A stretch of DNA of 49,800 bases, the filler included, from Bipalium vagum (taxonomy: Eukaryota): the NCBI GenBank assembly GCA_037834085.1. It is 2 parts of 2 records of this genome, joined end to end, with 100 filler letters (N's around TTAATTAATTAA, not from the genome) between each part and the next. Parts side by side here need not be neighbours in the genome. Positions count along the whole stretch, not along the records: positions 21,720 to 49,800 come from JBBMKC010069755.1; 1 more part is not named here. One strand, written 5' to 3'. The notes below the pieces were generated by a model that did no database searches, had not been told where the DNA came from, and was given only the letters and a program-made list of their open reading frames with translations. The position numbers and the translations under genes are program-made. Each line of letters begins with the position of its first letter. Positions within the stretch are counted from its first letter, which is position 1. Of this stretch, positions 26,448 through 42,018 are shown one piece after another.

Positions 26448-28664
26448 TTGTTCGATCTCGGCTTATGAGACTGCTTTGCTGCTGCAACAACATGACTAGA
26501 GACGGTTGATGTCAATAGATTTATTTGAAAATTTGTTAATAAATCTGATTTAGAAGCAATTTTTAATTAATGGAAAATTTCTGTTTACTTGAATGCTGTT
26601 CGTCTTTGTTTATTCGCATCTGTGAATTGATTGTTCCCTCTGATATTGCTCCGTTATGATCTCTTTTGCGCCATTTTGCCCTACGATTCTGGAACCATAC
26701 TTGGACTCGCGATTCACCAATGCCCAGCTTGGCTGCTAATTGTTCCCGGATTTGAGCATCAGGGTATGCTGACTGGTCGAAAGCGTGTTCAAGGATGGAG
26801 AGCTGATAAGCGGAAAATGTGGTGCTAAAAATGATTTGAAGAAATTAGACACAAGAAATAAATATTCGTTAATTTTTCAATGTAGTAACAAAAAATAAAT
26901 TAGAAATAATCGAATTATTCTTTCTATAATTTTGATATATTTATTTTCCCGTTTTCTTACTTGTTTTCAAAAGCGCTCCCCTAATTTTATTGATATATGG
27001 CCGCCTTAATTTAATCAATACAATTTTTTAATTGGTTTAATTAATAAATTTCATTTTATTTAATCATATTTCTTTTTTTTTAATTTAATATTCCATTGTT
27101 ACGCTTTTTCAAACATTTTAATTAGAAAACATTTTGAAAATAAATTACTTTTATAAAAATATTGATTCAATTCACCTTTAAAATATATTTTTTTTAAATA
27201 TTAAAAATAATCATAATCATTCATTTATGAATTACTTCAATTAAAAAATATATAACTAATTTTAAATAAATTATTAGGTACCGGAATACTAAGTGTCGTT
27301 TTCGGACTCGACTTTATTTAGTCTTTTATTATCTGCACAAATAAATTTAAATTAAATTAATTATTAAACATTATAATGTTGTTCATTGATTTAAATAATA
27401 ATTTTATTGATGTATTTATTTTTTTAATTAATTTTTAATGAAAATTATGCCGCGATCTAATATCAAAATTAGGTGCTTACATTTTATTCTAAAGAAGGTC
27501 TGAAGGCCACTGAATCAATTAGGTAAATTATAAATGGTTTGGCAAGTGTACGATCTCTATTCGAGATGCCTAATGATGTTTTAAGAGGTTCAGTGAATGC
27601 AATGTGGTCCTCGAAGATACCCTTTGAGGAGGACAAACAATTTTATTTGAATGAGGCTTTAGTTGAGCTTATCAAAAAAGAAACTCCCCAGACTTGTGTT
27701 AAAATGGCCAAGGATCTAAACTGTGATTACTCAACTGTACGCAAACGGCTTCACACTTAAAACTCTTCAAAGAAACTCGACCAATGGATTCCACCAATGC
27801 ATTTTATATTTCTTTCTTGGTTTTTGGCTACAGGTTTTTTTTAATATTTTGGAAAGTCAAACATTAGATTTCCCCGTTGTCAAAGAGTCAAAAACTTTCA
27901 AACTAGCTTAGCACAAAATTCATCAATAAAATATATTGAAATTGTAATTTAGAAATTACTATAATTATTATTATTCTTAATTGACATCTGTAAAAGTTGT
28001 TAATCACTTAATAACATTATTGGAGTGAAGTAATTTTCCCAACAACTCTAAAATAATCTCTGAATGTCAAATCTCAACCACCCACAACCGACTATTTATA
28101 TTATTTGAAGGGATTGACGTCTAAATTAATTTTATGAATTTTTGGAAGAATTATGGCAATTATTTTTTTCTTTTAAGAGAATTAATTATAATTTCTACTT
28201 AATTGAAATTTTGTTCCTGTTAGTCTATGAATTAATAATAATAATCATATTATTATTACTGTGAAAATTATCTATTTCCTAATAATATTAGACTAAAATA
28301 GCAATTTGTACTAATAACATTTTAAAATTATTTTACGAACTCTTCAGAACTCCAGTCATTATGTATAATAAGTTGTGATTAGATCAACTTAATCAATATT
28401 AAATATTGTGGTTTTGGCGTCTTCACTCCACATAACTCTTTTTGATAAAAAGCTACCCTACTATCAAGATTCTTTGTAAAGAACTTTAGAAAAGAAATCT
28501 CAATTCATAAAAATTAACTTTCTCCTAAAACACTGAGTGTAAAAGTTATTACCAATATCAGGACCGTAGCAGATTCGAAGGCAACAGTATTACACGGAGT
28601 ACTAAACATGCTTAGCTATTTATCTGATCCTTCTAAACAAAAGTTTAATTATTTTTATGGCTTC

Positions 28665-28711
<47 letters not shown>

Positions 28712-39709: not shown

Positions 39710-39753
<44 letters not shown>

Positions 39754-42018
39754 TAAAAATTTCAACTGTTATTAAATTAAAATGTTATTCACCTTGATTA
39801 AAAAATTAAAGAATTAAACCCAATACATCTAGAATGCAGTCAAATGTTACTGTAATATTATTCTGTGAGCATTTAATGATAAATGAAAAACTGTTATCAA
39901 ATTCAATAACTCTACATCACAAGCCCCTTGAGACGACTTGTGGCAATGACTCAAATTATTTTCTGAAAAATTTTCAACTTCCGAAATTTTAGCATGATGA
40001 TTATTAATTGCTATTTTGTCGAAAATTGGCAGGAGATCGTGGTTAAATTATCAAGGTAACGACCATGTGTCAAGGAAAACGTTATTACAATACAATGTTG
40101 AAGAAACTTGTTACTGATAACGTTCATTTTTCCCATTGTCACAGAACTGTACATTAAGCTCCGAATAGGAAATAAATTTTCCGTTGTTTAGAACTATAAA
40201 ACACATTTCGATGAAATGTTTATCATTTATTACAGAATTTAATTTTATTCAATGAATTTTTTTCTTGTGATACAAAACTTTTTAAGAATTAATTTAATGT
40301 ATTTGAAAAAAAAACAAATTTTTCTCATTATCAAATTAAAAATGTATTTTTCAATAATGTTCAAATAATTAATTGTTCAAAGTTAATTTACAAAATATCC
40401 CCATTTAACATTTGTTTAAATAACTCGCTAAAATTGGAAAATAATGCGCGTAATTTTCAAAAATCGTTTTCGTTAATTTTTCTGTCCAAAATACATTTTC
40501 AACATTACATTCCCAATAATTATTTTGAAATTAACAACAAAAAATCTTAATTATTCACATTTGTAAATCAATTATAAATTAATTTTAATTTCATCCACAC
40601 ATATAAATATGTATATATCGCAACAATGGGGAAAATACAACTAAAAACAACAAAAGCAACAAAAGTTAGATAAAAGAAAAAAAATACAAAAACTCAATAT
40701 TTCAAAGCAATTTTCTAACTTGTTTATATAAATTGATTAAATTAAAATTTGTGTATTTGGAAATAAAAAGCTAAATTAAATTTCTAATAAACAAAGGTAA
40801 CTAGGCATACGAAAACTGGAGACATAACATTAATTATCTAAAAGCAGCTTCATTGACTCTTGAAAATTAAAGTTAACGAATGAATATTGATAAATGTAAT
40901 TAAAATTCAAGTTGACAAAAAAATAATTAATCGATCTTGTAGACAAATTGAATAAAATCCAATTAAACACATTTAATAAATTGATAATGAAAATGTCGAT
41001 GGAAAGAGATAATAATTATTTGATTAATTAACCATAAGTGTGTGATGTATACATATATATCTAGCGATTCTTTTTCTTTATTTTTTTTTCCAACTAAAAT
41101 GGTGATTAGATGCAAAAAGAGAGATATATCTATATAAACGAGCAAAAATTCTTCTTCGGCCAATAAGCCAAAAAAGCCAGCAATTCATTCATAATGCCTA
41201 TGCATTGACTCGCATAAACTAATCGCATTAATAATGATAAAAGTACGGAGGAACTCTTAATGGCAATATAACTTTCATTAGCGAAATAATTAATCAATCC
41301 TAATTAAATCAAGCAGACAGATTCTTTGTATATGTAAAAATTAATAATCACGCTTTATCTCTTATGCAGTTACTTAGGAATATTCCCCATTCGTTGTGTT
41401 GGATTCTGAGCTGAATTTGCGCGCGCGCGCCCCTTTGTGTATGTGTGTATGTATATATATATAATGCATTGCTGTAATTACGCTTTGACTGTTTCTTTCC
41501 GTAATTCATGGCCAACATAGAGTGGGGTATCTTTGAACAACGAAAAAAAAACAAAAAAAAAACCAAACCTAATGGATATAAGGAATTATTATTAAAACAA
41601 CAAAAAACAAAAATGGGGAAAAATATTTCAACAAACAATAACAACAATATTATAAAGAATAATGACAATAACTCTCCCAATGATAAATGAATCAAATTTT
41701 AATTGCTAACCGATGTCTTGATTTTTTTAATTTATTATTACTGCGTGACAGCGAGTCTTCGGAATTACCTGGAAAATGATAGACGGTCAATGGATAATAT
41801 AGTTGACAATGACATGTAACAATCTTACAACGGGTGACGGGATCTTGATTGGTATCGTTGAGATTCATGTTTTCGTCGGCGTTAACATCCATTCGGTTCA
41901 ATCTGTGATTAACGGCTGCTTGTTTCAATCTTTCCAATTGGGCTGCTACCAATTGTTCGGGATCTTTCAGCTGAATGGACGACAATGTATTCTCACAGAT
42001 CCAGCGTGACACTTCCAT
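26448..42018 (-). CDS. Paired-like (PRD class, Q50) homeobox transcription factor; multi-exon
   Basis: Exons 41829-42018, 41711-41768, 26589-26824, 26448-26544; the last coding exon or stop is uncertain. Spliced homeodomain: [60 protein letters not shown]. The phase-2 donor CG|GTTAG at 41711/41710 matches the acceptor TTTTAG|C at 26825/26824. Confidence 0.85.
26589..26824 (-). CDS. Homeodomain-encoding exon (residues 5-60 plus C-terminal tail)
   Basis: Direct minus-strand translation gives F8, L13, L16, F20, YPD(25-27), R31 and [11 protein letters not shown]; absent from the ORF track. Confidence 0.95.
27274..27797 (+). mobile_element. mariner 5' remnant in homeobox intron
   Basis: TA-TTAGGT terminus; HTH remnant [22 protein letters not shown] and KLDQWIP (WVPH-like linker). 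Confidence 0.72.
28669..28709. repeat. (TAA)n microsatellite
   Basis: Perfect TAA run; similar tracts near 21775, 32790, 35520-35605 and 39712-39753. Confidence 0.9.
31015..31700 (-). mobile_element. Second, decayed Penelope-like fragment
   Basis: 31020-31157 is clearly similar to 21480-21616 ([24 protein letters not shown]); the extension to about 31700 is tentative and rests on a CGAAACATGTTT remnant near 31643. Confidence 0.7.
37694..37866. mobile_element. MITE related to the 6318-6477 element
   Basis: TA-CAGTGAAACCTG..GCGCACC ... GGTGCCCAAATTAAAAGGTTTCACT; same terminal motif, more diverged. Confidence 0.7.
41711..42018 (-). CDS. N-terminal exons of the homeobox gene
   Basis: ORF 41692-42018 contains a 60-nt GTAAG..TTTTCCAG intron (41769-41828) and ends in KKSRHR, the homeodomain N-terminal arm, at a phase-2 donor. 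Confidence 0.75.

What the first reader, a model, noticed from the sequence alone, without database searches (positions are those of the whole stretch)
26448..42018. Hidden, divergent Q50 paired-like homeobox gene with homeodomain split at Arg5 by a 14.9-kb intron
Seen: the minus strand at 26589-26824 encodes [55 protein letters not shown], which the ORF track misses. The N-terminal arm KKSRHR sits 14.9 kb away at a phase-compatible donor. Established: P26/D27 and WFQNRRAKW mark the PRD class with Q50. Helices 1-2 and the turn (SIL, DQSA, AQI, GIG) differ from the Arx/Alx/Rx/Vsx/Drgx/Uncx sequences I recall, and the common PRD-class intron between codons 46 and 47 is absent. Inference: a divergent or lineage-specific family member that automated annotation could fragment.
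Basis: partly seen in the sequence, partly recalled or inferred. Interest (0 to 1): 0.7.

Follow-up and report, generated by a model that had tools for sequence, protein, structure and literature searches.

The report
Planarian repo homeobox gene, ancient intron
This is most likely a planarian flatworm's copy of repo, a known gene-regulator family famous for fruit-fly glial cells; its DNA-binding part is predicted to be joined across a long intron whose position is shared with repo-type genes of other animals, so it is a new member of a known family rather than a new kind of gene.

Summary
A Q50 paired-like homeodomain exon lies at 26824-26659 (minus strand). Its arm lies 14,886 nt upstream on the same contig, at the only donor of 12 phase-compatible ones that gives a homeodomain arm.

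The 'lineage-specific' reading fails. The genome is a triclad planarian's. The domain groups with a conserved fluke, tapeworm and monogenean gene (42-43/60 identical). Two of three trees nest that group in the Repo family (99/95, 98/94). The third tree, without the arm, leaves the Repo link open, and AU tests reject only Alx among five alternatives.

The codon-5 intron is a Repo trait: 26 of 44 Repo-type loci from other animals break there, against 0 of 21 paralogues in this genome. Lack of the 46/47 intron is common here (13 of 25 paralogues).

The splice is inferred, not observed. Flatworm repo is already named in Gyrodactylus and in a polyclad larva, where it marks neurons. The scan had not noted this gene before. 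Verdict: new member of a known family; a useful handle on whether planarian glia use Repo.

The parts
41829..42018 (-). Predicted coding exon 1 from ATG 42018 (190 nt); low-complexity N-terminal region with no recognised domain; start codon not proven
   Evidence: GC 0.447 against 0.23-0.36 around it; open frame into exon 2; no homologue found; single copy in the genome
41769..41828 (-). Predicted 60-nt intron 1 (GTAAGA...TTTTCCAG); in frame and stop-free, so retention is possible
41711..41768 (-). Predicted exon 2 (58 nt), ending in the homeodomain N-terminal arm (residues 1-4 and two bases of Arg5, 41724-41711)
   Evidence: arm matches parasitic-flatworm relatives at K1, R3, H4, R5 (5 of 5 rows)
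26825..41710 (-). Predicted 14,886-nt phase-2 intron inside codon 5 of the homeodomain; AT-rich, with microsatellites and a transposon remnant
   Evidence: same position and phase in Repo-type loci of other animals
26659..26824 (-). Homeodomain residues 5 (last base) to 60, Q50, uninterrupted at codons 46/47
26589..26658 (-). Rest of exon 3 up to a likely donor (GTAAAC at 26588); if unspliced the frame stops at 26565-26563 (169 aa protein)
26496..26588 (-). Possible 93-nt intron 3 (inferred)
   Evidence: GT donor and ...CTCTAG acceptor resembling that of intron 1
26422..26495 (-). Possible last coding exon (185 aa protein if read to the stop ending at 26422; a weak donor at 26447 is an alternative)
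   Evidence: GC 0.47 island; frame open; uncertain
27450..27800 (+). Decayed mariner-like transposase fragment inside intron 2; not part of the gene product
   Evidence: 25 other matches at 67-82% identity in the genome; translation; the mariner label is from recall

Best explanation
This is an intact paired-like (Q50) homeobox gene that is most likely the planarian orthologue of repo, predicted to be spliced across a 14.9-kb intron at Arg5 and likely to act as a cell-identity transcription factor in a small nervous-system cell population. Shown: the exons, splice signals, open frame and single-copy status. Inferred from homology: splicing of 41711 to 26824 restores the basic arm; the codon-5 intron is an old feature of bilaterian repo genes that has grown long here. 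From established knowledge of PRD-class Q50 homeodomains (recalled): the arm with Arg5 reads the minor groove, helix 3 with Q50/N51 the major groove of TAAT-core sites, often as a dimer on palindromes. Inferred cell role, my odds: a neuron subset 0.45 (as in the polyclad larva), glia 0.3 (as in Drosophila and Platynereis), gland or other cells 0.25 (as in Nematostella).
For: Identity over 60 residues: 42-43 to parasitic-flatworm proteins, 39-42 to Repo-type proteins, at most 39 to any other of 239 distinct homeodomains held. Trees: window + flatworm group 99/94 and 99/91; with Repo-type rows 99/95 and 98/94. Repo-type rows are near-identical to the beetle homeodomain named Repo in the supplement of PMC5322547, and oyster and limpet Repo there carry an R-H-R arm. 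The flatworm group is Smp_035650 / G7YW91 / EmW_000524300, printed next to the Repo rows in two tree figures of that paper. Intron: 26 of 44 Repo-type loci have an AG acceptor inside codon 5, and in 8 of them the arm exon and GT donor were found 60-2082 nt upstream; 0 of 21 PRD-type paralogues of this genome with a visible arm break there. An arthropod Repo-type query and a flatworm-group query both rank this locus first in the genome. Rx, Phox, Otp, Hbn, Prop, Vsx, Arx, Alx, Uncx, Otx and Pax6 slots are filled by other loci (labels partly recalled). A Repo family member is listed for Gyrodactylus (PMC4040987), and repo is named in polyclad larval neurons (PMC10396302).
Against: The window protein has Ala at position 24, where all 13 flatworm-group and Repo-type rows have Pro. 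With the arm columns removed, the Repo link is unresolved and window + flatworm group is only 95/76. AU tests reject a union with Alx (p 0.014) but not with Arx (0.149), Prrx/Shox (0.185), Uncx (0.12) or Drgx (0.083); the Hbn test did not run. Sixty columns are few, and the bootstrap had not settled and held one mis-cut row. 18 of 44 Repo-type loci have no break at codon 5 (some are probably transcripts, 4 are coral-type genes with the 46/47 intron). In the fluke and tapeworm relatives the codon-5 intron is inferred only from broken protein models, not from DNA. The top rank is helped by paralogues being split by introns. The donor GTTAGC is not the commonest type. No similarity to relatives outside the homeodomain. 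GCM-type sites are not enriched in the window (14 found, 14.4 expected). The cell role rests on other species only.
Confidence: 0.8

Rival explanations
1. The gene is a member of a flatworm-wide PRD subfamily that arose from another family (Arx, Drgx, Prrx/Shox or Uncx) and only resembles Repo.
For: AU tests do not reject Arx, Prrx/Shox, Uncx or Drgx; Repo link open without the arm columns; Pro24 absent; databases call the relatives aristaless-related.
Against: Starred Repo clade in two trees; shared codon-5 intron with Repo-type loci and with none of 21 paralogues; Arx- and Uncx-type genes exist separately in this genome; K1, A19, L38 and S43 are shared with Repo-type rows and are minority states elsewhere.
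Confidence: 0.12
2. The homeodomain exon is real but uses a different upstream exon, or the contig is misjoined in the 14.9-kb gap, so that the arm at 41711 does not belong to it.
For: The assembly is fragmented (272,664 contigs); the interval holds repeats; the junction is inferred.
Against: One contig without N, same strand, right phase; only 1 of 12 compatible donors gives an arm, and it matches the orthologues' arm (chance about 6e-5 to 1e-3); exons 1-2 are single-copy.
Confidence: 0.05
3. A planarian-specific, newly arisen divergent homeobox gene, or a decaying copy.
For: Fairly long end branch (0.26-0.45); no closer triclad protein found in three protein searches; N- and C-terminal parts have no detected relatives.
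Against: Clear orthogroup across monogeneans, tapeworms and flukes; frame, Q50, N51 and core residues intact; single copy.
Confidence: 0.03

Closest known systems
Flatworm PRD gene Schistosoma mansoni Smp_035650 / XP_018647843.1 ('aristaless-related'), Clonorchis G7YW91, Echinococcus EmW_000524300, and relatives in Paragonimus, Fasciola, Cichlidogyrus, Protopolystoma
   Same: 42-43 of 60 homeodomain residues; K-x-R-H-R arm; S14, D21, A28; sister group in all three trees; database models often broken at Arg5
   Different: Window protein has S23-A24 for C23-P24 and differs at 29, 30, 34, 40, 41; much shorter C-terminal part (31-47 aa against 93-722 aa); no similarity outside the homeodomain
Repo (reversed polarity) family: Tribolium, amphioxus, oyster CGI_10005826, Lottia, Capitella (PMC5322547); Drosophila repo; Nematostella NvRepo
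   Same: Q50 paired-like homeodomain, 39-42 of 60 identical; one clade in two trees; phase-2 intron inside codon 5 in many bilaterian loci; no 46/47 intron as in arthropod-type loci
Other Q50 PRD families (Arx, Alx, Hbn, Rx, Prrx, Uncx, Drgx, Vsx, Otp, Prop, Phox)
   Same: PRD core, P26/D27, WFQNRR
   Different: At most 39 of 60 identical; most have their own loci in this genome; none of those seen breaks at codon 5

Membership tests
PRD class, Q50 paired-like homeobox | Homeodomain most similar to PRD proteins, with Gln50 | tested here: met
   Pfam PF00046; PDB best single-domain hits Alx4/aristaless; Q50
PRD class, Q50 paired-like homeobox | No paired domain upstream (not a Pax gene) | tested here: met
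   Exon 1 has no paired-domain match; predicted N-terminus is 78 aa; further upstream exons not excluded
Repo family | Homeodomain forms a clade with Repo proteins | tested here: met
   99/95 and 98/94 with all 60 columns; unresolved with columns 6-60
Repo family | Alternative families statistically excluded | tested here: inconclusive
   AU rejects 1 of 5 tested (Alx); Hbn not run
Repo family | Pro at homeodomain position 24 (typical residue, seen in all 13 relatives compared and 0 of 45 other rows; my diagnostic, not a published definition) | tested here: not met
   Ala24 in the window protein; the 7 flatworm relatives keep Pro
Repo family | Phase-2 intron inside codon 5 (trait found here, not a published definition) | tested here: met
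   26 of 44 Repo-type loci; 0 of 21 paralogues; splice in the window inferred
Repo family | Best Repo candidate in its genome | tested here: met
   First hit for Repo-type and flatworm-group queries; assembly fragmented, so an unseen gene is possible
Repo family (function) | Glial expression downstream of Gcm | not testable with these tools
   Two gcm-domain loci exist in the genome; no excess of GCM-type sites in the window
Alx family | Clade with Alx homeodomains | tested here: not met
   AU p 0.014; separate Alx-type loci L004, L009
Arx / aristaless family | Clade with Arx homeodomains | tested here: inconclusive
   Not found in any free tree; AU p 0.149; separate Arx-type loci L031, L032

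The most novel reading that the evidence does not exclude
This overlooked planarian repo, hidden behind a 15-kb intron and 'aristaless-like' labels, specifies planarian glia together with Ets-1, as Repo does with Pointed in Drosophila; insect, annelid and flatworm glia would then share one ancestral protostome programme.
Probability: 0.2. Interest if true: 0.65.

Novelty: new member of a known kind. Interest (0 to 1): 0.3.

Why it matters
As a gene it is ordinary: a divergent member of an old family. Its use is as a handle. Whether glia arose once or several times is open; a 2024 review states that repo is absent from Lophotrochozoa (PMC11193209), which PMC5322547, PMC4040987 and this locus contradict. 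Two planarian glia papers checked do not discuss repo (PMC5055395, PMC10508700). Planarians allow RNAi and have cell atlases, so naming the gene makes the test of a shared Gcm-Repo-Ets glial programme cheap. The codon-5 intron is also a practical marker for recognising repo genes and explains why many database models of them lack the arm.

Tried and rejected
RNA evidence: no RNA holder listed. The one listed run, X1, has a contig covering 26200-27300 in one piece without differences; it may be this DNA's source, shows no joint, and says nothing on splicing.

Protein searches for exon 1-2 found nothing; a Pfam Nab1 match (E 0.0016, below cut-off) and Atlas hits under 0.9 are taken as chance. 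The Atlas look-up for the S. mansoni homeodomain only said paired-like. Dux4 at the top of the PDB list is a two-domain scoring effect; multi-homeodomain proteins at the top likewise.

Two in-frame cassette-exon candidates inside the intron (34150-34064, 33572-33528) would break the homeodomain and were rejected. The nearer CG|GT donor at 27281 has no arm in register. GCM-type sites (motif recalled): no excess. TTAATTAATTAA at 36618 and 44516 has no N around it and is not a joint.

In one search the script flagged 11 non-Repo loci as broken at codon 5; on reading they are contiguous Pax6-type arms, so the count is 0 of 33, but many of those 33 may be transcripts and I do not use them as a control. 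3 of 80 loci could not be placed. One search had a frame slip, corrected. Row P0135 was mis-cut and dropped afterwards; searches dropped 16 and 24 of 63 rows (duplicates, long or partial rows).

Literature: searches listed no paper on a triclad repo; supplements of PMC9522251 (8 files) and 12 of 29 files of PMC12660999 had no 'repo'. The tapeworm genome paper was not held. Earlier scan notes: nothing by sequence or words.
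Full report
1. Observation. The window has one joint, at 21620-21719; 21720-49800 is the whole contig G000:C69755. On the minus strand, 26823 onward encodes homeodomain residues 6-60, preceded by a T-rich acceptor ending in AG; Pfam gives E 2.4e-23. KKSRHR begins at 41727 and runs into CG|GTTAGC. Joining 41711 to 26824 removes 14,886 nt and makes Arg5 from CG+C, with one open frame from ATG 42018. Of 933 GT dinucleotides upstream on that strand, 12 follow CG, and only this one yields an arm; chance is about 6e-5, or 1e-3 for a looser pattern. 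The predicted gene has a 60-nt first intron and possibly a 93-nt third intron with a small last exon, giving 169 or 185 aa. All splices are inferred.

2. Organism. Otx-type loci L005/L006 match the Dugesia and Schmidtea OtxA homeodomains printed in the supplement of PMC5322547, and L013 resembles Dugesia Pax6B. The genome is a triclad planarian's.

3. Relatives. Two groups lead the single-domain hits. One is a parasitic-flatworm group: Paragonimus, Fasciola, Schistosoma mansoni, Heterobilharzia, Echinococcus, Cichlidogyrus, Protopolystoma. The other holds arthropod and coral proteins that databases call aristaless or Rx, but which are near-identical to the homeodomain named beetle Repo in PMC5322547. 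Over 60 residues the window domain has 42-43 identities to the first group, 39-42 to the second and at most 39 to any other of 239 distinct domains held. No closer triclad protein came up.

4. Trees. With 63 rows (LG+G4) the window domain is sister to the flatworm group (99/94) inside a Repo-type clade (99/95); the bootstrap had not settled and one row was mis-cut. With 39 rows and the mixture model the values are 99/91 and 98/94. With the arm columns left out (47 rows) the first group holds at 95/76 and the Repo link is unresolved. AU tests of window + flatworm group with other families rejected Alx (p 0.014) but not Arx (0.149), Prrx/Shox (0.185), Uncx (0.12) or Drgx (0.083); the sixth test, Hbn, did not run. 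In the text of two tree figures of PMC5322547 the same flatworm genes (Smp_035650, G7YW91, EmW_000524300) stand next to the Repo rows; support values cannot be read reliably from that text, and I did not see them labelled Repo.

5. The intron. At least nine protein records of both groups lose the arm just before residue 6. To see DNA, I fetched the best 80 of 310 metagenome loci related to a Repo-type protein; 77 could be placed, 44 Repo-type and 33 other. 26 of the 44 have an AG acceptor inside codon 5, in the same phase as here; in 8 the arm exon and GT donor were found 60-2082 nt upstream; 18 have a contiguous arm, among them probable transcripts and 4 coral-type genes with the 46/47 intron. 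Several loci are near-copies (21 distinct exon sequences among the 26). In this genome, 0 of 21 PRD-type paralogues with a visible arm break at codon 5, and 13 of 25 lack the 46/47 intron. So the split at Arg5 is an old family trait and the missing 46/47 intron is unremarkable. For flukes and tapeworms the intron is inferred from broken models only. Whether 14.9 kb is long for this genome was not measured.

6. Slot in the genome. Repo-type and flatworm-group queries both rank this locus first, though split paralogues score lower for technical reasons. Other loci fill the Rx, Phox, Otp, Hbn, Prop, Vsx, Arx, Alx, Uncx, Otx and Pax6 places (labels from trees, from the named sequences, and partly from recall). 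The gene is single-copy, whereas many of those come in pairs.

7. How it likely works. Established for Q50 paired-like domains (recalled): arm and helix 3 together bind TAAT-core DNA, so the long intron must be removed for a working protein. The flanks are short and unconserved. For the cell role there are only other species: glia in Drosophila (PMC11193209, passages); a glial gene set with Gcm in Platynereis (bioRxiv 10.1101/2025.10.30.685666, passages; supplements closed); neurons and gland cells in Nematostella (PMC10491807, passages); a vglut-positive neuron cluster with ETV4 and prox-1 in a polyclad flatworm larva (PMC10396302, section 12 read; I did not see that gene's sequence). The nearest relative with data points to neurons, so I put 0.45 on neurons, 0.3 on glia, 0.25 on other cells. 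The genome has two gcm-domain loci, but GCM-type sites are at chance level in the window (motif recalled; only 7.8 kb upstream are on the contig).

8. What is known. Repo is an established PRD family (PMC1779571, passages; PMC5322547, passages and supplement file 2, file 1 not searched). A flatworm Repo is listed for Gyrodactylus salaris (PMC4040987, passages and supplementary table; sequence not seen). Searches listed no study of a triclad repo; PMC5055395, PMC10508700, PMC10560571, PMC11232438 and PMC6225667 were seen as passages only and showed no repo gene. The gene may well sit in planarian transcriptomes or in supplements I could not see under an alx/arx-like name. One search listed no paper on the repo intron position; I read none of its hits.

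9. Verdict. Observation confirmed; interpretation partly supported. New member of a known family, confidence 0.8; interest 0.3, mainly because it offers a direct test of Repo's role in planarian glia.

Noticed in passing
window 1-21619, minus strand (separate stretch of the pack): Multi-exon gene with several PHD fingers and a zf-HC5HC2H domain, resembling the N-terminal half of KMT2C/trr-type proteins (label recalled).
   Followed up: partly
window 21299-21619 (-), 5002-5391 (+), 599-883 (+): GIY-YIG fragment and weak DDE transposase matches, probably transposon remnants.
   Followed up: partly
window about 23080-23380 (+): Frameshifted remnant with Tc1/mariner-like DDE motifs downstream of the gene (label recalled).
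   Followed up: no
window 42570-42742: About 58 copies of a GAT microsatellite 550 nt upstream of the predicted start codon.
   Followed up: no
G000 loci L002/L003, L004/L009, L005/L006, L007/L008, L012/L014, L016/L022, L024/L025, L027/L029, L031/L032, L118/L119: Many homeobox genes and gcm occur as diverged pairs, suggesting a genome duplication or divergent haplotypes, while the repo-like gene was found once.
   Followed up: no
proteins P0003-P0015, P0137, P0233, P0258: Repo-type proteins of mosquitoes, a psyllid, corals and Schistosoma are auto-named aristaless or Rx in databases.
   Followed up: yes
loci L083, L086, L089, L090, L100, L102-L106, L110-L113: Repo-type genes that appear to carry both the codon-5 and the 46/47 intron, while coral-type loci have only 46/47 and arthropod-type loci only codon 5; consistent with gain of the codon-5 intron in bilaterians and later losses.
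   Followed up: partly
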